Below are positions 9,112 to 32,926 of a DNA stretch of 64,000 nucleotides, piece by piece. The position numbers and the translations under genes were made by a program. The stretch spans positions 8,951,957-9,015,956 of the forward strand of contig MU053881.1 in assembly GCA_013239625.1 (NCBI GenBank), given 5' to 3'. Position 1 is the stretch's first letter, and every line of letters begins with the position of its first letter. Source of the DNA: Lama guanicoe. Taxonomy: Eukaryota. The notes below the pieces were generated by a model that was not told the origin of the DNA, searched no databases, and saw nothing but the letters and a program-made list of their open reading frames with translations.

Positions 9112-10148
9112 GGCAGAGAATCTTCTTTTCCATGGGACTCAGTCCTCCCAGGACGTCAGCTGGAGTTGCCGGAGTCCATTTTGGTCATCACAGAAAACAC
9201 CAACAGGGAAGACAAGGGTCCCGTTTGAGCCCCTGAAATCTAACCTGCCTGGAGGTACACCTGGACTCCTTAACGAGCAAAGAACCTCTTTTTTCGTTAA
9301 GCCCACTCTTACCTGAGATGCTCTCATTTGTAATACACTACATGGCTTCATTAGGTTCTTGTAATGAATCAATTAAACGGCATGATGTGTGAAAGGGCTT
9401 AGTATAATATCTGGAACTTAGGGGTTTGATGCATGCAAGCCAGTTAATAATTATTATTACAGTCATTTTGATTTTGAATATTTTCCTATTGAAAAAAAAT
9501 TTTTAAAGCTTGATGATCCTAAAATCAGACAAGGATGTGCTGGCGATGCTGACTCCAGGGGACTTGGTCCTGTCTCTGCCTGCAGACCTCTCACAGCTGG
9601 GCTGGCACCCCCTTGGCTTACTCACCTGCCTGTCCCTGCTCCTCTTAACTCCTGTGTTTTCAGATACGTTTGGGAGCGCACTTAGGACTGTCTGTGATAA
9701 AATATGCATATTTCCTGAAACCCAAAGTATTCTCACTGAATGTAATAAGTGGAAAGTTATCTTACAGGAAATGAAAATCTAAGATTAATACTCTTCGATG
9801 CCATGTAGTCCCCTCGGGACAATTACTCACTGCATTACAGCAAAATAAACTTGCAAAATGTGGGAATCAGTTTTCTCCTTGGGTTTCTAGGATAAGCGAA
9901 GTCCTGAAACTACTCAAAGTCAGCTCCTGGCTGCCAGACCCGCCACCTTAACTCACAAAAGAGGCATCAGATTCGCCAGAACACGAGACTTTAAACCAAT
10001 TCATGGCCATTTCCTCAGTGCTGAGCAAAAGTATAGAAAAATAAAACATCAATTTAAAGCCAATCCGTCCATCAATAGTTACTGATCACTATTTACTAAC
10101 ACTGTGAGAGGTAAGTTACATCACCACTGACCCCAAGGAACTTTTAAC

Positions 10149-10327
10149 ATTCATTCATCCCTCCTTCAGTCATCAACTGTCTACTCAATGTTACTCTGGG
10201 CCAAGCACTCTGCTGGATGCTAGGAAACAAAACGCCCTGAGGGACTTAGTTTTAAAGAGCAGCAAATCCCAAATACGGTTCATTCCAAGAATCACAGAAA
10301 ACTTTTATACATCTACAGGCATCTGAG
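10149..10327 (+). repeat. Local direct repeat, copy A (about 180 bp)
   Basis: Aligns by eye with 10815-10994 (ctctgggccaagcact, ctgctggatgctaggaaacaaaa, tttaaagagcagcaaa, ggttcattccaaga). Confidence 0.9.
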
Positions 10328-10814
10328 CCCTTTGCTTCATCCTACTGTATGAAAAATTTCTCAGGGGACCGGAAACCTATTGTCAGTAAGTGGCTCCCTT
10401 GACCGTGTGCTTCACCAAGTTTGAGAACCACGGGGAGAGATGATGAAACAAACATGAAAACAATCAAACACAAGGCAGTGATTGTGTGCTAACGGGGCGG
10501 ATGAGCGGCGCATGGAGGGGTGAGCCGAGGGAGAGGTCACTCCAGACAAGGCCCCTCTGACACCCTCCCGGCTGCCATGTAGTTATGACCTAGCCTGAGT
10601 TTATTCAAACCCTCACATCATGATGCCTCCCCAAAGCATTAAACAGACCTGTGGAGTTCACTCCCAGGCGGAGAGTCACCAAGATGAGTCAGGCAGGCTC
10701 GTCCACACACAGTCTCACCCCAAGGCCTCCGACACCGCGCGGCTCAAAGGACAAAGTCTTAGAACTTCCACAGCCATAAGCATCCTTGCCTTAAATATAG
10801 AAGGACCTGAGAAG

Positions 10815-10994
10815 ATTCATTCATCCCCTCCTTCAGTCAAGAAATTTCGGCTAAACTTTCTCTGGGCCAAGCACTACTGCTGGATGCTAGGAAACAAAAT
10901 GCCCTGATGGACTTAGATTTAAAGAGCAGCAAACCCCAAATATGGTTCATTCCAAGACTCACAGGAAAGCCTTATAAATATACAAGGATCGGAG
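10815..10994 (+). repeat. Local direct repeat, copy B (about 180 bp)
   Basis: Second, diverged copy of 10149-10327. Confidence 0.9.
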
Positions 10995-11194
10995 GTGCTT
11001 TTGTTGGCATTATTTCTGAGCGGCTGTGAAGTGCAGCGTTGGCGCACCTTTTCCCCTTGGGCCACATGTTTTCAAATTTGCTTTCCTAGAAACAGAAGCA
11101 GCGCTCCGACCCTGGGGCTGCCCCAGCTTGCTGAGCCTCGATTCATCTGTCTAGAGGTGGAAGGAAGGGCAGTCTTTAAAGGAGGGGGCGGGGT

Positions 11195-15570: not shown

Positions 15571-18509
15571 TTGCCAGAGATGACGGTCATCTATGAACTA
15601 TGGAGATACCCACCCCCAAATATCTTCCTTTGGATCCTGCCTTTAGGAGCCTGAAAATGTTGTGAAGTCTACTCACCACTCAGTGTTGAGGATTTGCCAC
15701 AATTTTCAAGACTCCCTGAGAACATGCATGTGTGAGGAGAGATTCGCAGGAACAACACACACCCGTTCACAGGCTGAGTGAGACTGAAGCATCACTCAGG
15801 TCAGGGCCTCCTGAATAAAGCCTTTGTCACAAGTGAGACCTTCCTGTTCCCCTCCCCGTCTTGGCTTTATCGTGGACTACCACTGACTTAACAAAATTTC
15901 TTTAGGTGAAAAACAATCTACTTTTCCGCTTGCCTAAATGCATTCAATGAGGAGAAAACTGTGCATCACTGCCAGACATGTAAAACAAGCGTCACCTGCC
16001 CTAAACACAAAGTAAAGGTAAAAACAGACATCACGAGATGAACGCAAGATGATATAAACACCAAAGAGGCCCTCCTTGATTTAACCTGGAAGATTAAGTG
16101 AGCTGAAAAAGGGATCTCCTTGTGGTGTGATTCCGTCATTTTGTGCACATTGCTGTGTGTCTACAACTTCAAGCAACCCGCCACTGTTACCCCGAGTATG
16201 CCCCCAAGGGATGCTCCCCACTCTTAATCTGCTGCAGGGTACAGGTAAGTGTCTCCCCTGAAAGTCTGAGTTACGAGCACTGTGGAAGGAGTCTTGGAGG
16301 GAAGGTGCATGGGGCCTGGGGGTCACAGGGGTCACACATGGGAGACCTCTGCACCCTCTTTGAACTTCATGGTTCTGTCCAAGGCCACCCAGGCTCTGCT
16401 GACTCATCTCACCGCCAAAACCTCCTCATTAGGGGTTCACGGGAGGCACCGCAGAGGTGGGGATGGTTGGGCAGGAGGGAGAGAGGCATTCTTTTATTCC
16501 AGGTTTGTAGCCTCCTCAAGGGTAGGGCTCAGCCTACTAAGGCCTTTCCTGACTGTAAAGATAAAAAGATAAAATAGCTCCCTCAACCGCAGTGGAGTTT
16601 AGCACGTCTCTGACAAGCAGCAATAATTAAGATCTAGCATAAACACAGCGCCTCCGAGGACAGTAAAAGCTGACTAAATGGGAATTTGTTCTGTTTGGCT
16701 TTTCTTTCCTTTATTTAGTTTTCCCGGGGAAGTTTCACTTTGAAGCAGGGCGGGCCCTGGGCGGAAGTGCAGAGTCTGGGATCTCCCCGAATGCCGCGCC
16801 GGTCAAGGCCACCTACCCCAGAAGGGTGTCCCAGCTTCCCACACTGTGCCTGGCCGGCCTCCGTCCACTGTGGTCCCTGTGGGCTTCTTTGCTAAGAGGA
16901 GGTGCTCAGTGCCCAGTGGGTGTGTGCTACTTAAAGTCCTCGTCCTGCATTCTCTCACCGCCCAACACATCAGAACCCCGCCTCTGCGCTGTGGACTGGG
17001 GGCGGGAAGGGGGGCTGGCAGTGGTTAACCAGGAGCTTTTCCAAGAAGTGACCCACTGACGACCCTTAGGTTACAGAAGGCTGACAGTGGCGGGGCTTGG
17101 GAGCAAGAGGTCTCGAGCGAGGTGCCGTTAACCCCATAGGTAACATCTGTGTGGCTGGTGGTGGCGAGCGCGGCTCCGGCCCTGGAGTTAGCCCACCCGA
17201 GGCCAGGTCCCCGCTCCTCTACTTTTAGCTGAATCAACTCAAGCACTTAACTCAATCTTTGTAAACACCAATTCTCTCATCAGTAAATAGGGCTGTCAGG
17301 ATGAGTAAGTGGGACGCACCATGGAAAGCACTTTGCATAGCCCCTGGAATTTAATAACCACTCACTGAACATTTATTGTCAATATTATCCATCTTATCAA
17401 ATAATAGCCATATTACTCACATGAGGCCAGAACCATCCATGGGTCAGAACGACCCAGTTCAGGCAACTTTCGGGGGATGAGAAACGTATCATGTGAGATT
17501 CATGTTTCTCCTCTAAACTGTCACAGCCGATCCCCCCCTCCCCGCCCGTAGTTGTCCATCACTAACGAAATTCCTCCCTTTCCTTCCTCTGACACAGCCC
17601 TCGTTTCTTGACACACAGTCTCACTCTTCTCTCCTCAGACAGCAGCGAGGAGTCAGTGATCTCGGAGGCAACGAGAGACTTAAATATAACACGTGAAACA
17701 TACTCAACCTTCCGATCTGAAAGGACGGGTAAATCGCACAATTTGAAAGGAGCAGAGTCTCCTTCCTCAGAAGATGCCTACCTGTTACAGGGGTTTCTCT
17801 TTGCCCCCCCCTCCCCCATCACGGCGGAAACACCACCATTCCCACTGACGGAAACGGTGCTACCAGCCTCACAGCCGCAGACGCGTGCAGGCGGGATCCC
17901 AGGGAAGAACCAGCATCCGTCTTCCAGCTTCAGGTTAGTCCATCGGGGGAACGTGGTGCAGATGTTATTTCTAAACAAGAAATGCCCTCGGTGCTAATTG
18001 CTTCTAAGAGCTGTTCAGTTAAAGGGGACACATATTTCCGCTTATCGGAGGGGATGCCATTTAGAACGGGTCCCAGTTAATAAAGGAAGCTTTAAGCGGC
18101 AGGCCGTCAGCAAAGGAAATCAGGGTTCCAGGGGTCAGGTGACACCCCCCGCATGCCAAGCCGTCTGCCTGGAGGGCCTTGGGCTGAGGGGCTCAAAAGT
18201 TAGTAGACATGACCACACGGAGAACACATTTCTGCATGTCAACCATTGCTAAGTCCCCGCCACAGCAAAACGACCAAGCCGCTGTCAATGTCAGGCTAAC
18301 GAGTTGGGATTCCACTTCCTGCCACTCTTCTCTGAGTGGTATTTCACAGGGGACTGTCATTAGCTGGGGACTGGATCCCTGTTTGGTGCCTGTAGGCAGT
18401 TAGAGTTCATATACCTTGTTGGCAAATACCACATTGATGGTCAAAATGAGACAAGAATAGATTAGAAAAACGTACTCCTGGGGAGGACAAGGCTCAATCA
18501 AGCTGAACG

Positions 18510-18790
18510 AGAAACAGACTCACAGACATAGAAAACAATCTCCTGGAGACCAGGGGTCAAGGGGCGAGAAGGGATACAATGGGAGTTTGGGATCTGCAGA
18601 TAAGAACTACTATGTATAGAAGAGATAAACAACAAGGTCCTATGGTATAGCACGGGGAACTACATTCAGTATCTTGTAGCCACCTATCAAGAAAACGAAT
18701 ATGAGAAGGAACGTATACACGTGACAAACATTGTTCTGTATGACACTGTGAACTGGCTATAATTCAATAAAAAGAAAGGAAAAAAAAAAA
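18510..18790 (+). mobile_element. 5'-truncated L1 3'UTR (cetartiodactyl/camelid type)
   Basis: gaaacagactcacagacatagaaaacaa...gggagtttggg...aaacaacaaggtcctatggtatagcacggggaactacattcagtatcttgta...caataaaaa plus a poly(A) tail; homologous to 32636-32920. Confidence 0.85.
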
Positions 18791-19223
18791 GACCTTGGAA
18801 AGACAGCAAGGGAGGAGAATTCTAGAAGAATTCCCAAAGACACGCTTGAACGTGGACAACTCATCTTGGTAGCCACTTCCAAGAGGTGTGCAACTTCTAT
18901 GCTCCGGTTGCTGCTTCTGGACCTCATAGAAGGAATGGCGACAGGATAGCATCCCTGAAGCCTTGAGCTACTTCCTCTGATGTGGGGGAGGCAAACATCA
19001 ATCAAATAGTTCTCTGTGCAGGCATGCATGCGTGCACGCACACACTGGTCAAGTGAACTGTGATAAAAGCTTCAGAAGAAAAGAAGATGCAGTAAGAGTG
19101 GATAAGTGTGAGAATTAACCCAGAGCGATTGTGAAAGACCTCGTTTAGGTCCTGGTAACGGAGCTCAGAGCTGCAGGATGAGCAGGTGATGACAGAAGGG
19201 AGGGGCAGGAACACTAAGCAGTG

Positions 19224-19660
19224 CAGGCAGATCTCACGTCAGAACCCTTGGCAGAACATGCATTTTTGTTTGTTTGTTTGTTTGTTTGTTTTTAACAAAT
19301 TGAGCGTTGGTGGCCACGCTGCGTGGAACAGGTCTACTGGAGCCATTTTTCCAATAGCATTTGCTTGCTTCCTGCTTCTGTATCACATTTGGTAATTCTC
19401 ACAATGTATCGAACTTTTTCATTATTTTACTTGTTATAGTGATCTGTGATCAGCGATCTTTGATGTTACTACCACTACTCATTGAAGGCTCACACAATGG
19501 TTAGCATTTTGTTTTAAGCAAGAAAGTATTTTTTAGCTAAGGCACGTACATTCTTTAGACATAATACTATTGCACATTTAACACACTATACTGTAGTGTA
19601 AGTTTTACATGCACTGGGAAACCAAAAAATTCCGATGCCCTGCTTTATTGTGACACTGTT
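19224..19660 (+). mobile_element. Internally deleted Tigger1 derivative (TcMar-Tigger), in copy 1
   Basis: One Tigger1 end (ttttaacaaattga..gccatttttccaatagcat..ggtaattctc..gtgatctgtgatcag.gatctttgatgttacta) is joined to the other (tgaaggctca..ggttagcatttt..tttagacataat..gcactgggaaaccaaaaaattc). Confidence 0.8.
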
Positions 19661-20589
19661 ACCTACTTCTTTCTCTGTCCTTCCAGCTCTTCCAGAGCTT
19701 ACTCTATTTCCCACTAATTTGCCTCTTACTGTATACCACCATATCGACCTCAGTATCCAGAACACAGAAGGAATCAACAAATACTCACTGATTCATCTCT
19801 AACCGAGAGCATGGCAAAAGCATGCTGTGAAGGACTCATCCAAATGTAATTTTTTCCCCCATCTTCCCACCAAAGGAGTTACTAATGACTTGACCCTCCT
19901 AATGGCCAACCTTTCCCCCAGGACCAAAACAACGTATTTCCCTTTGAGGTTTACCAGCAGAAGCAACCGTTTTGAAAGAAACACGTGTAATTTGTCATGC
20001 CTGGAGACAATGTTTGTTTTTCTCAAACAGCCGTTTTATTTGGCAAACATGCACCACTTGAAGCATTGCTACAATGCGTGTTTGTAGAAGCAGCTTCAGA
20101 TTTTATCTGGGTTCTGAGTGGACTGGTGGGTGACACAGCTACTTTAATATATTCCTCAATTAAATAGGTAGATAGAAATAGAATTTAAATATTCAGGAAT
20201 AATAATTGTTGGGGAGAGGAGCCCTAAGCGATATTCCTCACTGTCTATCATATTTCTATTCTTATTTCTCAAATTTAGGGCTTATTAACATTTTTCTAAT
20301 ATTTTTTCTCCAAGCGAGCAGAAAGGTGAATATAGAAGTGAAACTAAAGAGTAACAAAGTTACGTTACACGGCTCTCTTTTCATACTTTGCACCCTACTT
20401 GGTCATATTTGCACACCTCTTGATGATTCTTAAACATACACTGCAGTCTGAGAGACAAAATAGTATTTATACATGCTTTTATCAAAGAGAAAAGAAAAAG
20501 AATGGCTAAGAAGAGATAGAAGTTGAAAAGTAACCGTAGATATTAAGGATTTACCATCACCTATCACGTGTGCTTATGCAGTGACTGTA

Positions 20590-20745
20590 GTCATCCCTCT
20601 CCTTTAATCCTCAAAATCCTCCCATGAAGCTGTTATGATTATAACCCCCACTTTGCAGAGGTCCAGGGACTTGAAGTCACGTGTCCCAGATCAGACCATA
20701 AGAATTGGTGGAACCTGGTGTCCACCTGATTTCAAAGCCCCAACT
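20590..20745 (-). mobile_element. MIR fragment inside the triplicated unit (also at about 22750-22905 and 24966-25121)
   Basis: tttaatcctcaaaatcctcccatgaag..ataacccccactttgcagag..tgaagtcacgtgtcccagatca..ctgatttcaaagccc. Confidence 0.65.
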
Positions 20746-21083
20746 TGACGTGACCCCAGCCCAGAAGGAAAGGTGAGAATAATTCATTTCAGGCCACGAT
20801 GTCATTCTGTGGAGGGTCCAACAGCAAGGAAAGACCCCTTCACCCCTACCTATTTCTGAAAGTCGGTAGGAATGCGTATTTGCCGCTCATCCTGGAGAAT
20901 TCGGGAAGTGTGGGTGCACGAATGAAAGATTTTCTTCCCCTGCACACTTTCTGTGCAGCAGGACTCAGGGAAGGAAGATGACGACAAATTGGAAAACTCA
21001 GTCAGAGACAGAAACCTCAGAGGAGAAGGCCCTGCAGAAACCCGTGAACACACCACTGGGCTTACAGCAAAGCTCTCTTCAAA

Positions 21084-23243
21084 AAATGGCGACAGGATAG
21101 CATCCCTGAAGCCTTGAGCTACTTCCTCTGATGTGGGGGAGGCAAACATCAATCAAATAGTTCTCTGTGCAGGCATGCATGCGTGCACGCACACACTGGT
21201 CAAGTGAACTGTGATAAAAGCTTCAGAAGAAAAGAAGATGCAGTAAGAGTGGATAAGTGTGAGAATTAACCCAGAGCGATTGTGAAAGACCTCGTTTAGG
21301 TCCTGGTAACGGAGCTCAGAGCTGCAGGATGAGCAGGTGATGACAGAAGGGAGGGGCAGGAACACTAAGCAGTGCAGGCAGATCTCACGTCAGAACCCTT
21401 GGCAGAACATGCATTTTTGTTTGTTTGTTTGTTTGTTTGTTTTTAACAAATTGAGCGTTGGTGGCCACGCTGCGTGGAACAGGTCTACTGGAGCCATTTT
21501 TCCAATAGCATCTGCTTGCTTCCTGCTTCTGTATCACATTTGGTAATTCTCACAATGTATCGAACTTTTTCATTATTTTACTTGTTATGGTGATCTGTGA
21601 TCAGCGATCTTTGATGTTACTACCACTACTCATTGAAGGCTCACACAATGGTTAGCATTTTGTTTTAAGCAAGAAAGTATTTTTTTAGCTAAGGCACATA
21701 CATTCTTTAGACATAATACTATTGCACACTTAACACACTATACTGTAGTGTAAGTGTAAGTTTTACATGCACTGGGAAACCAAAAAATTCCGATGCCCTG
21801 CTTTATTGTGACACTGTTACCTACTTCTTTCTCTGTCCTTCCAGCTCTTCCAGAGCTTACTCTATTTCCCACTAATTTGCCTCTTACTGTATACCACCAT
21901 ATCGACCTCAGTATCCAGAACACAGAAGGAATCAACAAATACTCACTGATTCATCTCTAACCGAGAGCATGGCAAAAGCATGCTGTGAAGGACTCATCCA
22001 AATGTAATTTTTTTCCCCATCTTCCCACCAAAGGAGTTACTAATGACTTGACCCTCCTAATGGCCAACCTTTCCCCCAGGACCAAAACAACGTATTTCCC
22101 TTTGAGGTTTACCAGCAGAAGCAACCGTTTTGAAAGAAACACGTGTAATTTGTCATGCCTGGAGACAATGTTTGTTTTTCTCAAACAGCCGTTTTATTTG
22201 GCAAACATGCACCACTTGAAGCATTGCTACAATGCGTGTTTGTAGAAGCAGCTTCAGATTTTATCTGGGTTCTGAGTGGACTGGTGGGTGACACAGCTAC
22301 TTTAATATATTCCTCAATTAAATAGGTAGATAGAAATAGAATTTAAATATTCAGGAATAATAATTGTTGGGGAGAGGAGCCCTAAGCGATATTCCTCACT
22401 GTCTATCATATTTCTATTCTTATTTCTCAAATTTAGGGCTTATTAACATTTTTCTAATATTTTTTCTCCAAGCGAGCAGAAAGGTGAATATAGAAGTGAA
22501 ACTAAAGAGTAACAGAAAGTTACGTTACACGGCTCTCTTTTCATACTTTGCACCCTACTTGGTCATATTTGCACACCTCTTGATGATTCTTAAACATACA
22601 CTGCAGTCTGAGAGACAAAATAGTATTTATACATGCTTTTATCAAAGAGAAAAGAAAAAGAATGGCTAAGAAGAGATAGAAGTTGAAAAGTAACCGTAGA
22701 TATTAAGGATTTACCATCACCTATCACGTGTGCTTATGCAGTGACTGTAGTCATCCCTCTCCTTTAATCCTCAAAATCCTCCCATGAAGCTGTTATGATT
22801 ATAACCCCCACTTTGCAGAGGTCCAGGGACTTGAAGTCACGTGTCCCAGATCAGACCATAAGAATTGGTGGAACCTGGTGTCCACCTGATTTCAAAGCCC
22901 CAACTTGACGTGACCCCAGCCCAGAAGGAAAGGTGAGAATAATTCATTTCAGGCCACGATGTCATTCTGTGGAGGGTCCAACAGCAAGGAAAGACCCCTT
23001 CACCCCTACCTATTTCTGAAAGTCGGTAGGAATGCGTATTTGCCGCTCATCCTGGAGAATTCGGGAAGTGTGGGTGCACGAATGAAAGATTTTCTTCCCC
23101 TGCACACTTTCTGTGCAGCAGGACTCAGGGAAGGAAGATGACGACAAATTGGAAAACTCAGTCAGAGACAGAAACCTCAGAGGAGAAGGCCCTGCAGAAA
23201 CCCGTGAACACACCACTGGGCTTACAGCAAAGCTCTCTTCAAA
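21084..23243 (+). repeat. Tandem segmental repeat, copy 2 (2160 bp, lacks 58 bp at its start)
   Basis: Begins a+aatggcgacagg and ends ctcttcaaa; length = 2209+1+6+2-58. Confidence 0.97.
21375..21818 (+). mobile_element. Tigger1 derivative, in copy 2
   Basis: Duplicate of 19224-19660. Confidence 0.8.
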
Positions 23244-25459
23244 ACTTCCAAGAGGTGTGCAACTTCTATGCTCCGGTTGCTGCTTCTGGACCTCATAGAA
23301 GGAATGGCGACAGGATAGCATCCCTGAAGCCTTGAGCTACTTCCTCTGATGTGGGGGAGGCAAACATCAATCAAATAGTTCTCTGTGCAGGCATGCATGC
23401 GTGCACGCACACACTGGTCAAGTGAACTGTGATAAAAGCTTCAGAAGAAAAGAAGATGCAGTAAGAGTGGATAAGTGTGAGAATTAACCCAGAGCGATTG
23501 TGAAAGACCTTGTTTAGGTCCTGGTAACGGAGCTCAGAGCTGCAGGATGAGCAGGTGATGACAGAAGGGAGGGGCAGGAACACTAAGCAGTGCAGGCAGA
23601 TCTCACGTCAGAACCCTTGGCAGAACATGCATTTTTGTTTGTTTGTTTGTTTGTTTGTTTTTAACAAATTGAGCGTTGGTGGCCACGCTGCGTGGAACAG
23701 GTCTACTGGAGCCATTTTTCCAATAGCATTTGCTTGCTTCCTGCTTCTGTATCACATTTGGTAATTCTCACAATGTATCGAACTTTTTCATTATTTTACT
23801 TGTTATGGTGATCTGTGATCAGCGATCTTTGATGTTACTACCACTACTCATTGAAGGCTCACACAATGGTTAGCATTTTGTTTTAAGCAAGAAAGTATTT
23901 TTTTAGCTAAGGCACATACATTCTTTAGACATAATACTATTGCACACTTAACACACTATACTGTAGTGTAAGTGTAAGTTTTACATGCACTGGGAAACCA
24001 AAAAATTCCGATGCCCTGCTTTATTGTGACACTGTTACCTACTTCTTTCTCTGTCCTTCCAGCTCTTCCAGAGCTTACTCTATTTCCCACTAATTTGCCT
24101 CTTACTGTATACCACCATATCGACCTCAGTATCCAGAACACAGAAGGAATCAACAAATACTCACTGATTCATCTCTAACCGAGAGCATGGCAAAAGCATG
24201 CTGTGAAGGACTCATCCAAATGTAATTTTTTTCCCCATCTTCCCACCAAAGGAGTTACTAATGACTTGACCCTCCTAATGGCCAACCTTTCCCCCAGGAC
24301 CAAAACAACGTATTTCCCTTTGAGGTTTACCAGCAGAAGCAACCGTTTTGAAAGAAACACGTGTAATTTGTCATGCCTGGAGACAATGTTTGTTTTTCTC
24401 AAACAGCCGTTTTATTTGGCAAACATGCACCACTTGAAGCATTGCTACAATGCGTGTTTGTAGAAGCAGCTTCAGATTTTATCTGGGTTCTGAGTGGACT
24501 GGTGGGTGACACAGCTACTTTAATATATTCCTCAATTAAATAGGTAGATAGAAATAGAATTTAAATATTCAGGAATAATAATTGTTGGGGAGAGGAGCCC
24601 TAAGCGATATTCCTCACTGTCTATCATATTTCTATTCTTATTTCTCAAATTTAGGGCTTATTAACATTTTTCTAATATTTTTTCTCCAAGCGAGCAGAAA
24701 GGTGAATATAGAAGTGAAACTAAAGAGTAACAAAGTTACGTTACACGGCTCTCTTTTCATACTTTGCACCCTACTTGGTCATATTTGCACACCTCTTGAT
24801 GATTCTTAAACATACACTGCAGTCTGAGAGACAAAATAGTATTTATACATGCTTTTATCAAAGAGAAAAGAAAAAGAATGGCTAAGAAGAGATAGAAGTT
24901 GAAAAGTAACAGTAGATATTAAGGATTTACCATCACCTGTCACGTGTGCTTATGCAGTGACTGTAGTCATCCCTCTCCTTTAATCCTCAAAATCCTCCCA
25001 TGAAGCTGTTATGATTATAACCCCCACTTTGCAGAGGTCCAGGGACTTGAAGTCACGTGTCCCAGATCAGACCATAAGAATTGGTGGAACCTGGTGTCCA
25101 CCTGATTTCAAAGCCCCAACTTGACGTGACCCCAGCCCAGAAGGAAAGGTGAGAATAATTCATTTCAGGCCACGATGTCATTCTGTGGAGGGTCCAACAG
25201 CAAGGAAAGACCCCTTCACCCCTACCTATTTCTGAAAGTCGGTAGGAATGCGTATTTGCCGCTCATCCTGGAGAATTCGGGAAGTGTGGGTGCACGAATG
25301 AAAGATTTTCTTCCCCTGCACACTTTCTGTGCAGCAGGACTCAGGGAAGGAAGATGACGACAAATTGGAAAACTCAGTCAGAGACAGAAACCTCAGAGGA
25401 GAAGGCCCTGCAGAAACCCGTGAACACACCACTGGGCTTACAGCAAAGCTCTCTTCAAA
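23244..25459 (+). repeat. Tandem segmental repeat, copy 3 (2216 bp)
   Basis: Begins acttccaagagg, ends ctcttcaaa, then unique tgctgacacc; length = 2209+1+6. Confidence 0.97.
23593..24036 (+). mobile_element. Tigger1 derivative, in copy 3
   Basis: Duplicate of 19224-19660. Confidence 0.8.
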
Positions 25460-28189
25460 TGCTGACACCGACATTATCACGTAAATGCCTGTTAACAGAA
25501 CAATGCCTCGTGGGGGTAAAAATGTGCCACCTTAAAAAACAAAATAACAAAAAAACAAGGCAGCACCGACCTCCAGGCAGATTTGTAGGACCTCCGGTAA
25601 CCATTCCCGGACAGCATCATGTTCTACGGAGTGAAACACCAGCTCTGGAGGAAATCCCTAAACTTAAGGATGTAGACAACTGCTCTTTGTGGCTCCTGAG
25701 GAACTATTAGAGTCAGTGAAGGAGACAGAACGTGTCGTCCTCAGGTCTTCAGCATCCCTCTGGAGCCACACGTGGACCACCTCATCTCTTGATGCTTGCT
25801 TCTGGTTGGGATGCGTGCCAGACACCTCTCTGCAACTGTCACCAACGCCACCGGGGAAGTCGGTGGTGGAGCAGAGAGAATGTTCTTCCTGCACGTGCCA
25901 GCATGCTCTGCCTTCATGCCCAAGTTGTCCCCAGGAGACACATAATGACCTCCAAGCCAGAGGTCAGTGGCTGACCCTTGACTCACACAGGTGGCCTGTG
26001 TAGGTCCTAATGACACCATCATGACAGTTACTCTGTCCTTTCCTCAAAGGAAAAGTGAGATGAGCAGCACATGAAGGAAGGTTCTGGGCTATTACAATTT
26101 GCTTAAACCAGGGCGCACAAATTCACAGGCCTAAAGCACCTGGTTTGATTCCAGGAACGAGACTGGCCAAGGGAAATCACAGCCTCTTGACCTGTTTCTC
26201 ACGGGTCTGCTTTTGACAGAGGCATGCAGATAAGAAACAGGTCACTCTCCTCTTCACCATAAGAAAAACAGTATTTCAGCCTTGATGACAAAGGCAAGTG
26301 ACCCCAATCCTCACTGTTGGGAAGACAACATAGGGGGATGGGGACCAAGGCCCCTGGGAAGTGTAGGTTCCATCCGAAGGGTCCGCTGCCCTGGCACATG
26401 ACTGATGTCACTTGGGGGTGTGGCTCAGAGATCTGACTGTCTGATGTTTCAAAAGCAGTTAGAAATCTAGACATTTATTTTGTTTTGAATCCTAGCCACT
26501 AACTACAAATTTTCTTAATTGCTACGTAGGTCACAGAAAAACAGGTTTGCTCCCTTCAACAGTAAGAGAGGGCCAAAAACAAGGCTACAACTTGCCTCCT
26601 GATTCCTAACCACAGATTTTGGGAATCCCTGGTCATATTTAGGGTTCCAGGCGTTTTGCTTGTGGGCTAAGCAATCATCATCTTTGTTGATTTATTTACT
26701 ATATATCTATCAATCATTTACTATCTATAAAGCACTTCATTATATTCTGTGGAATATTTACATATTTCTTATGTAGGGTGCATGGGTATCATTATATATA
26801 AAATCCACAGATATACAGAAGTTCCTGCATGTGCACATATAAATGAGACAGTCCACGTTTTTAGGAGTATACTATAAAGAGAAACATCTGCACAAAATTG
26901 GAATATGATGGCTAAAACATCACTAGAGAACTTTTATTAAAGACCTGGGCTTTGCTGGATGAAATCTAAGGGTATTACACAGACGCTCTGCTTACACACG
27001 TGGGGTGTACAATCGAAGCCAAATGCATCCTCGTGGGCAGTTACCGATAACGTATAGACACACAGATAGAGAAAACTTCGGCAGAGATGCGACTGGCCAT
27101 GAGATTCTGAGTCATATTCTAAGGGTTGGAGTGAAAAATGAAGGCCAAGTTCTATTTTTTCAGCAGATTACAAAAAAAGGCAGAATCAACGTGGTCAATG
27201 AATGTCTGCTCTGGCAGAGATGGAGAAACAGTTTTGATACGGAAAGCATCTGATGGAGAAGCTGTGTTTTCAGACAATGTTTGGCTGGTGGATGGATGAC
27301 CACCTGTGGGCTCTGGGCAAAGGTCTTTGCAGAGATCTGATAAGGAGAAGGTTAGAGAAAGGACGGCTGAAAAGTGGCTTGGAAACCGAGGACCGCCCCT
27401 TGACACCCGTCTTCCCACTGTTGGGAGAGGTCCCGCTGATCGCGATTCCCACAGGCTGGTGAATGACAGCAGAGGGGCCAGAAAGAGGGGCTACAGGAAC
27501 CCCTTCCCGCATACTTTGCCAGGCCCGGGGACTTCAGCATTTATGTTTCCAGGTTTGCTTTTGGGGCCCTCGCTGTCTGAAAGCCCATTATTCCTCTCCC
27601 TATTTTGCTTCCTCTGTGTCAAAAAAAAAATAATGCTCTGGCAGTTGGAGGAGGCAAGTGTGCGCATTTTCGAAGTAGGAATCATGCAGAGTTGAACATT
27701 GCTTTACCCAAATAAAACTTTTTGCTTTCAGATTTTTCAGTGGGCATGTTCCTTTTTTTAGCTGAAAAATTTTCTGGTCTGTATTAACAGCTTCTTTCAC
27801 CCGCTTAGTCTGTCCCGTTTCGCCAGCTGTGGACCCAGCCAGTGTGATTTCTTTTGTGCCCGGCTTTAAACAGTCTTAGAAACAGACCGTATTCTGCCAT
27901 CAATCCATGCAGAGAAATCGCCCTGACAATGAATGGAGCCTCTGTGCAGGAATCAAAGCCAGGGCACGGCTTCATCATATCTTTTTTTTTTTTTTTAAGT
28001 CTGCTTTTTATTTTGTCTGTTATTAACAAAAAATACACTCAAAGAGCTGAGACAGAGGTTAAAGCAAGAAACGAGGAAATGAGAAACTCAACTTCCGTGA
28101 TGTTATTTCTTGCCTCTGTAAACTGTAATAGGATCTAGCCACCTTTCAAAATATTTCAAGTGTGAATACCTGGATAATTACAATAAAAA

Positions 28190-31300: not shown

Positions 31301-32313
31301 GCAGGGGAAGCATGTCTGTCTACTGTTTTTGCTTGCCCAGTTCCCATCCCCTTCTTTTAAAACAGTGTCTCAGTCTGTCTTCCTCATTCCCAGGCAGGGA
31401 GGGTCACTGGGGAGACGCCACCTGCAGTCACCGATTCCTTTCCCCATGGCCACGCTGACTGGCTTAGGGAAGGGGGCGTGACCCCAGGTTATTCTGAGAC
31501 TCAATCTTAGAATTTGGTTGTGTGCAGCCATGAAGAAAAAGCAGCTCTACCCACAAGCTGGTTGGGTGGTCAAGCCTAGAACTACTGGGATTAATCTTGT
31601 CATTACAAAGAAAAGTCTTCCTCAAAATAAGGGCAAGAGGGAAAAAAAAAAGGGTGGGAGGCAAGGGATGAAGAAAGTGTAGCTGGTTTGGGCAGCTAGA
31701 TCTAGGCATGCCTTCAGCTAGGGTTTCTCTGTTGTCGTGGGAGGCAATGAATCCCCCTTTCGTTTTTGCTGAAGCGAGCTGCAGTTCAGTTGCTGACATT
31801 TTTAGGGAAGAGAGTCCTAATATTCTAGGCAGTATCGTTCCAGGGAGCTTGGTACCTGAGGTGTGAGCGGCTGGCTCCCCCAACGGGAAGTTGAACTTCA
31901 AGCATGCCATTTGGTAATGGCACCAGGGATTTAAAAAAAGAAAGAAACGTGAGCAGAGCTGAGATTCCTGCATGTGACACACTGGGTGGGTAGTTTTAAC
32001 TTCTCACGCTCTAAGTTCCTTCTTCTGTGAAATGAGGAGTGAGACTCATTCAGGGGTCACCAACAGCAGGCTTTTGGCAAAGATAACCGATGAGTATGTT
32101 CAGCCATTTTATCTCCTTACTTCCTGGCATGACATTTGCCTACTTACTTTGTCTTACAAAGCATTAATTGAGCACTTACTGTCTTACACCCCCCTCTCTG
32201 GGACCTGTAGACACTTGAATTTGTAATCTCTTGACTAATTTTCCCTTAGGGCACATCAGCACCATCATCCCATGTTTCTATCCCAGATCTGCCTGCTTCT
32301 GAAGTCTGAATTT

Positions 32314-32926
32314 CAAAAAGACATATGCACCTCAATGTTCACAGCAGCACTGTATACAAGAGCCATGACATGGAAGCAACCTAAATGTCCATCAACAGAT
32401 GACTGGCTAAAGAAGTGGTGGTATATTTATACAATGGAATACTGCTCAGCCATAAAAAAGAATAAAATAATACCATTTGCAGCAACATGCATGGACTTGG
32501 AGATCATCATTCTAAGTGGAGTAAGCCAGAAATAGAAATAAAAATACCGTAAGATATCACTCATATGTGGAATCTAAAAAAAAAAAAAAACAAAAAAAGG
32601 AAAAAAAGGGACACTATGAACTCATCTACAAAATAGAAACAGACTCGCAGACACAGTAAACAATCTTATGGTTACTGGGGAAAGGGGGTGGGAAGGGATA
32701 AATTTGGGAGTTTGAGATTTACAAATGTTAGCCACTATATATAAAAATAGATTATAAAAAAAGTTTCTGCTGCATAGCACAGAGAACGATGTTCAATATC
32801 TTGTAATAACCTTTAATGAAAAGAATATGAAAATGAATATATGTATGTATATGCATGACTGGGACATTGTGCTGTGCACCAGGCATTGACACATTATAAC
32901 TGACTGTACTTCAAAAAAAAAAATTA
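32314..32926 (+). mobile_element. 5'-truncated L1 (ORF2 C-terminus, 3'UTR, poly(A)) with TSD
   Basis: ORF 32272-32535 contains KDICTSMFTAALYTRAMTWKQPKCPSTDDWLKKWWYIYTMEYCSAIKKN (L1 ORF2p end); TSD aagtctga(a/g)ttt at 32302-32313 and 32927-32938. Confidence 0.93.

What the first reader, a model, noticed from the sequence alone, without database searches (positions are those of the whole stretch)
18875..25459. Young 2.2-kb tandem triplication of non-coding DNA
Seen: three head-to-tail copies (18875-21083, 21084-23243, 23244-25459). Besides a 58-bp junction deletion, I found only ten differences by eye (7 substitutions and indels of 1, 2 and 6 bp), so identity is above 99%. The unit is ordinary single-copy-type DNA with old Tigger1 and MIR fragments, and no homologous repeat flanks its ends. 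Each copy has private variants, which a simple duplicated contig overlap would not produce. Inference: a recent, possibly polymorphic CNV. Established: intronic tandem gains can alter enhancer dosage, as with the STX17 intronic duplication in grey horses.
Basis: partly seen in the sequence, partly recalled or inferred. Interest (0 to 1): 0.7.

Follow-up and report, generated by a model that had tools for sequence, protein, structure and literature searches.

The report
Non-coding 2.2-kb triple repeat, unconfirmed
A 2.2-kb stretch of gene-free DNA appears three times in a row in this camelid-type assembly; it is either an ordinary small copy-number gain or an assembly error, and nothing ties it to a gene or a trait.

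Summary
The three head-to-tail copies are present at the stated coordinates, 99.35-99.72% alike. The differences look biological: 7 of 8 substitutions are transitions and 3 of 8 fall at CpG. That fits paralogues and alleles equally, so private variants do not exclude an assembly error. Both junctions share one right end and have no microhomology, and no flanking repeat exists. Variant order fits a duplication followed by unequal crossing-over at 8 of 9 sites (P 0.11). A two-haplotype false triplication needs four switches, but it would explain why the middle copy is trimmed exactly at a junction. I obtained no read-level test. Word shares in 20 public runs (0.67-0.78) cannot separate carriers from non-carriers. 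No exon, RNA gene or host gene was found, so the enhancer-dosage idea has no support here. Odds: real triplication about 55%, partly or wholly an artefact about 45%. The scan has no earlier look-alike. Ordinary either way.

The parts
18875..21083 (+). Copy 1 of the unit (2209 bp), continuous with the unique left flank
21084..23243 (+). Copy 2 (2160 bp): one A, then the unit without its next 58 bases; private differences at 21512 (substitution) and near 22514 (2-bp insertion)
23244..25459 (+). Copy 3 (2216 bp), continuous with the unique right flank; private substitutions at 23511, 24911 and 24939
21083..21085 (.). Junction 1: unit end joined to unit position 60 with one extra A; equal to junction 2 minus 58 bp; no microhomology under either parse
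23243..23244 (.). Junction 2: blunt join of unit end to unit start, 0 bp microhomology
19438..19856 (.). Block holding all six differences private to copy 1 (419 bp; P 0.0014 for so tight a span if placed uniformly)
19265..19291 (+). (TTTG)6.8 microsatellite, same length in all three copies (also 21416-21442 and 23634-23660)
19292..19640 (.). Old DNA-transposon-like fragment (Tigger1-type); label and limits from recall, not tested
   Evidence: sequence; recall
20590..20740 (.). MIR-like fragment; label and limits from recall, not tested
   Evidence: sequence; recall
18480..18792 (+). Left flank: LINE-1-like 3' end with an A-rich tail, ending about 80 bp before the array; not part of the unit (label recalled; 73% alike to 32635-32837)

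Best explanation
A real, probably neutral tandem array made in two steps. Step 1 (inferred): a non-homologous repair or template-switch event joined the unit's end bluntly to its start and gave two copies, X and Y. These differ at 8 sites, either because they came from different alleles or because they diverged later. Step 2 (inferred): an unequal crossover between two misaligned X-Y chromosomes, between copy-1 positions 19856 and 20535, gave X, a Y-left/X-right hybrid, and Y. The 58-bp loss and three small changes distinguish the two parental X-Y chromosomes or arose afterwards. Shown: the three copies, the junction sequences and the order of variants. Not shown: that the array exists in the animal, that it varies in copy number, or that it does anything.
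For: Both junctions use the same right end and can share one left end, as copies of one junction would. Copy 2 matches copy 3 at all six sites in 19438-19856 and matches copy 1 at 20535 and 20563; 8 of 9 informative sites fit one crossover, and the misfit is a CpG transition. The substitutions are mutation-like: 7 of 8 transitions (P 0.003) and 3 of 8 at CpG (P 0.002). [quoted passage not shown] A two-allele artefact needs four haplotype switches in 2.2 kb. Blunt junctions lie within the 0-5 bp range of real non-recurrent CNVs (PMC3447954). Unchecked scan notes describe long near-identical duplications resolved in this assembly, which would point to reads longer than the 6.6-kb array.
Against: The crossover fit is not significant (P 0.11). 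The 58-bp loss begins one base from a junction (P about 0.002 if placed at random) and has no microhomology; this model must treat that as coincidence. Junction 2 also has none, whereas the median in de novo CNVs was 2 bp and STX17 has 6 bp. None of the 20 runs that hold the stretch reaches the 0.89 share expected of a collapsed carrier (top 0.78), although none reaches the 0.87 expected of an identical single-copy allele either. No read depth or junction reads were obtained.
Confidence: 0.45

Rival explanations
1. Assembly artefact from a single-copy locus. A left contig ending at the unit's end and a right contig starting at the unit's start overlapped by 2.2 kb but were not merged because the two alleles differ. 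A third version of the overlap (a contained contig or a gap-fill, trimmed by 58 bp at one edge) was placed between them. The 11 differences are then heterozygous sites, about 0.5%.
For: The trimmed copy is the middle one and the trim sits at a junction (P about 0.002 at random). Both joins have zero microhomology, as arbitrary cut points would (P 0.56 each). In the best two-haplotype phasing copy 2 is one pure haplotype and the outer copies are mosaics. The six copy-1 differences are contiguous (P 0.013), like an allele block. Adjacent overlapping contigs with a single contained contig between them are a handled class (PMC2864568). Heterozygous regions are the main source of false duplications, some joined by incorrect gap filling (PMC9516828). 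Long-read gap fillers overfill gaps (PMC3504050, PMC9635638) and were used on one camelid reference (PMC6618069).
Against: There is no N at either junction, whereas gaps between copies are a main mark of false duplications. Four haplotype switches are needed. Copy 2 shows only two small private differences and no run of indel errors. Searches listed no paper that, in what I read, documents this exact gap-free three-copy signature; the fill mechanism is my inference. The assembly method of this window is unknown to me.
Confidence: 0.35
2. A real two-copy duplication (junction 2) on both chromosomes, with a false third copy. The assembler stepped from copy Y of one chromosome into copy X of the other, an unequal crossover made in silico.
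For: It gives the same sequence as the best explanation. All 11 differences and the 58-bp loss become X-Y differences or heterozygous sites, and both junctions are real. The copies share difference-free stretches of up to 520 bp, where short reads could cross over.
Against: Reads longer than 6.6 kb would prevent it, and unchecked notes suggest such reads. The 58-bp loss at the junction still needs a separate mutation.
Confidence: 0.1
3. A real triplication made in one replication accident. One broken end at the unit's right edge re-started twice upstream, at two sites 59 bp apart and possibly on different homologues, so the two junctions differ from birth.
For: It explains the shared right end and the shifted left end without a separate deletion. 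Two rounds of template switching, the second into the other homologue, are proposed for head-to-tail triplication (PMC8165465). The A-rich LINE-like tail lies about 80 bp from the left start.
Against: That mechanism uses microhomology and gave identical breakpoints in the cited case; here there is none and the starts differ. Two homologues alone cannot give the variant order without four switches. No stable fold lies at either breakpoint (z -0.25, -0.61 and -1.7).
Confidence: 0.1

Closest known systems
Horse STX17 intron-6 copy-number variant, alleles G1/G2/G3 (PMC11362437, PMC3443021; passages read)
   Same: [quoted passage not shown]
   Different: STX17 has 6-bp microhomology at the breakpoints, long-read and ddPCR proof, a conserved MITF-site enhancer, a host gene and a phenotype. 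Here there is no microhomology, the two junctions differ, and there is no read proof, host gene, enhancer or trait.
Non-recurrent tandem CNVs with blunt or microhomologous junctions (PMC3447954; tandem triplication of 20q11.21, PMC8165465; passages read)
   Same: Direct orientation, no flanking homology, junction within the 0-5 bp homology range.
   Different: In the cited triplication all copies had equal length and the same breakpoints, with microhomology. Here the middle copy is 58 bp short at its junction and the copies differ at 11 sites.
False heterotype duplications; duplicated overlapping and contained contigs (PMC2864568, PMC9516828; passages read)
   Same: Adjacent, near-identical copies of ordinary DNA that differ at allele-like levels (0.23-0.41%), with an overlap-contained-overlap layout.
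   Different: Those usually have gaps between the copies; here the sequence is continuous. Half depth and discordant pairs, their defining tests, were not measured.

Membership tests
Real small tandem CNV of the STX17 G3 kind | Head-to-tail direct copies of a non-coding unit | tested here: met
   no Pfam family above cut-off and no Rfam match
Real small tandem CNV of the STX17 G3 kind | One breakpoint junction repeated at every join | tested here: inconclusive
   Same right end; junction 1 equals junction 2 minus 58 bp
Real small tandem CNV of the STX17 G3 kind | Raised read depth and reads crossing the junctions | not tested
   No read-level result was obtained (laid nothing)
Real small tandem CNV of the STX17 G3 kind | Copy number varies between animals | tested here: inconclusive
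   20 of 24 listed runs hold 0.67-0.78 of 304 words; carrier and non-carrier expectations differ by about 0.02, equal to the noise
Real small tandem CNV of the STX17 G3 kind | Unit holds a conserved enhancer acting on a host or neighbour gene, with a trait | not testable with these tools
   No conservation, chromatin or trait data on hand; no exon found in 64 kb; CACGTG 3 per unit against 0.8 expected is only a hint
Microhomology-mediated (MMBIR-type) tandem gain | Microhomology at the junctions | tested here: not met
   0 bp at junction 2 and 0 bp at junction 1 under both parses; a 4-bp match near junction 1 would need three extra A
NAHR-mediated (recurrent) duplication as the first step | Homologous repeats at both ends of the unit | tested here: not met
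   Local score 22 against shuffled mean 19 and maximum 32; no such pair in the self-BLAST
False heterotype duplication (overlapping and contained contigs) | Adjacent copies differing at allele-like levels | tested here: met
   0.23-0.41%, with a mutation-like spectrum
False heterotype duplication (overlapping and contained contigs) | Assembly gap between the copies | tested here: not met
   No N in the window; a closed gap would leave none, so this lowers but does not exclude the reading
False heterotype duplication (overlapping and contained contigs) | Copies reducible to two haplotypes | tested here: inconclusive
   Possible with four switches, copy 2 pure; P(runs <= 5) 0.06
False heterotype duplication (overlapping and contained contigs) | Reduced depth per copy and discordant read pairs | not tested
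   No read-level result was obtained

The most novel reading that the evidence does not exclude
The array is real, varies from one to three copies among South American camelids, and holds a distal enhancer whose dose changes expression of a gene outside this window and a visible trait, as STX17 does in horses. Its two unequal, microhomology-free junctions would then record how such an array grows.
Probability: 0.03. Interest if true: 0.6.

Novelty: new member of a known kind. Interest (0 to 1): 0.15.

Why it matters
If real, it is one more small tandem copy-number variant, usable as a marker and as a clean example of growth by unequal crossing-over. It would matter more only if the unit proved to hold an enhancer with a dose effect, and nothing here shows that. 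If false, it is a 4.4-kb over-assembly that would hide up to 11 heterozygous sites and give false variant calls. The general lesson is that private, mutation-like differences between tandem copies do not prove that an array is real.

Tried and rejected
Coding content: 195 of the 211 stop-to-stop frames of 75 aa or more were scanned against Pfam; the 16 left out lie in copies 2-3 or across the junctions. Three of 195 gave weak hits, all below the curated cut-offs (E 0.004-0.012). 0 of 69 splice-site-bounded exon candidates hit; candidates in copies 2-3 and in part of copy 1 were left out of that list. Rfam at gathering score: 0 matches in 64 kb. Short exons without a Pfam family or non-coding exons would be missed, so 'intronic' is neither shown nor excluded. 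Tandem Repeats Finder cannot see a 2.2-kb period (limit 500). No whole genome is held, so I could not count similar arrays genome-wide. Run word shares were considered as evidence against carriers and rejected: the carrier/non-carrier difference is about 0.02, the noise is about 0.02, and the loss of words in contigs is unknown. A 31-base motif from the unit's right end had 0 exact matches in the metagenome contigs; this is uninformative because host DNA is not expected there. A hairpin cause for the 58-bp loss was rejected (z -0.25). NAHR between flanking repeats was rejected. Sequencing error as the source of the differences was rejected (spectrum). Scan look-ups near the window and by sequence returned nothing, and the word search gave only prokaryotic repeats. 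Paper searches listed no title or abstract start on a camelid CNV of this kind; with no gene name the locus itself could not be searched. No supplements were opened.
Full report
Observation. The array is in the sequence as described. A self-BLAST of the window and global alignments give three direct copies at 18875-21083, 21084-23243 and 23244-25459, with identities of 99.35-99.72%. All three end on the same base. Copy 3 begins at the first base of the unit, so junction 2 is a blunt end-to-start join. Copy 2 begins with one A and then resumes at unit position 60, so junction 1 equals junction 2 minus 58 bp. Six are private to copy 1, two to copy 2 and three to copy 3. The window has no N, and no other near-identical duplication appears in it.

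Context. I found no gene. Of 211 stop-to-stop frames of 75 aa or more, 195 were scanned against Pfam; three gave weak hits below the curated cut-offs. None of 69 splice-bounded candidates hit, and Rfam gave no match. Short or non-coding exons would be missed, so 'intronic' stays open. The camelid assignment rests on unchecked notes of this scan and on a recalled SINE-type motif at 2222. Those notes place ATP10B and SUGP1 5.1 and 5.6 Mb beyond the window on the same piece. The Tigger1, MIR and LINE-1 labels are from recall. A LINE-like 3' end with an A-rich tail stops about 80 bp left of the array.

Junctions. Neither join has microhomology, and neither has the 58-bp loss. The two breakpoint regions share no homology beyond shuffles (score 22; shuffled mean 19, maximum 32), and none folds stably (z -0.25 to -1.7). 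Recombination between flanking repeats is therefore excluded as the first step. De novo CNV junctions in mouse cells showed 0-5 bp of homology, median 2 (PMC3447954, passages), so a blunt join is allowed but is not the commonest kind. The 58-bp loss starts one base after the junction. If one deletion fell at random in the array, the chance of that is about 0.002. This is the oddest feature.

Variants. They look like real mutations, not read errors: 7 of 8 substitutions are transitions (P 0.003) and 3 of 8 lie at CpG (P 0.002). That is true of alleles as well as paralogues. Along the unit the private sites run copy 3, copy 2, six of copy 1, copy 2, copy 3, copy 3. The six copy-1 sites fall within 419 bp (P 0.0014) with nothing between them (P 0.013), so the differences come in blocks. 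One reading is an unequal crossover: copy 2 matches copy 3 on the left and copy 1 on the right at 8 of 9 informative sites. That fit is not significant (P 0.11). The other reading is a mosaic of two alleles, which needs four switches, with copy 2 pure and the outer copies mixed. If all 11 differences arose after copying, the age would be about 68,000-154,000 generations under assumed rates of 2.5e-8 and 1.1e-8. If the copies came from different alleles, much less time is needed.

Outside evidence. Twenty of 24 listed runs, from 8 studies and 4 organism labels, hold 0.67-0.78 of 304 sampled words of 18800-25600; all are stored as contigs. An identical single-copy allele would hold 0.87 of the distinct words, a collapsed carrier 0.89, and all three copies 0.98, with noise of about 0.02. 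An unrelated allele at 0.3-0.5% divergence would hold 0.79-0.74, or 0.85-0.80 if words are counted by occurrence. The unit is therefore real DNA shared by related animals, and no run stands out. The shares cannot tell carriers from non-carriers. No read-level result was obtained (laid nothing), so depth and junction reads, the decisive tests, remain open. A motif scan of metagenome contigs gave 0 matches and is uninformative.

Mechanism. My best reading (0.45) is a real array made in two inferred steps: a blunt tandem duplication, then an unequal crossover between two duplicated chromosomes. It explains the shared junction end and most of the variant order, and it fits the gap-free sequence. 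[quoted passage not shown] Unchecked scan notes describe a 34-kb inverted duplication and a many-copy 90-kb block resolved in this assembly. They moved my odds from 60% artefact to about 45%. The model leaves the junction-located 58-bp loss as a coincidence.

Rivals. The main rival (0.35) is a false triplication of single-copy DNA: two overlapping contig ends from different alleles with a third, trimmed version between them. The same paper handles overlapping contigs with one contained contig in between. Ko et al. found heterozygosity to be the main source of false duplications, mostly with gaps between copies and sometimes joined by incorrect gap filling (PMC9516828, passages). Overfilled gaps are documented (PMC3504050, PMC9635638, PMC8848313; passages), also in a camel reference (PMC6618069, passages). 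A published alpaca reference was a meta-assembly with 8X long reads (PMC6598621, passages). I do not know how this window was assembled. Searches showed me no paper documenting a gap-free triple with a trimmed middle copy, so that step is my inference. Two lesser rivals are a real duplication with a false third copy (0.1) and a single replication accident that re-started twice from one end (0.1; compare PMC8165465, passages). These confidences are judgements, not computed values.

Comparison. The closest functional case is the horse STX17 4.6-kb variant: three head-to-tail copies, 6-bp microhomology, a conserved MITF-site enhancer and a dose-dependent trait (PMC11362437 and PMC3443021, passages). 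This array shares the layout only. It has no microhomology, unequal junctions, and no shown host gene, enhancer or trait. Three CACGTG sites per unit against 0.8 expected are too weak to count. Searches listed no title or abstract start on such a camelid variant; the locus has no name to search by, and no supplements were opened.

Verdict. It is about 55% a real triplication and about 45% partly or wholly an assembly product. In both cases it belongs to a known kind, and no function is in evidence. Interest 0.15.

Noticed in passing
window 10135-10367 and 10801-11023: An older local direct duplication of about 200-230 bp, 78-84% alike and 666 bp apart. By recall it begins in an L2-type tail, and the pair is more alike than independent old copies usually are.
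   Followed up: partly
window 18480-18792 and about 32310-32920: Two LINE-1-like 3' fragments with A-rich tails, 73% alike over 205 bp; label recalled. The first ends about 80 bp before the array.
   Followed up: partly
window 25455-25459: The shared right end of all three copies reads TT/CAAA, which by recall resembles a degenerate LINE-1 endonuclease site, but the break lies after the A run and not at the expected cut.
   Followed up: no
window 20381-20422 (and 22541-22582, 24757-24798): A two-copy 21-bp imperfect repeat inside each unit.
   Followed up: no
window 1-64000: No exon or RNA gene was detected in 64 kb. G+C is 45% and CpG observed/expected reaches only about 0.6 in 1-kb windows, highest at 17001-18000 just left of the array. 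The window looks like a gene desert or a very long intron.
   Followed up: partly
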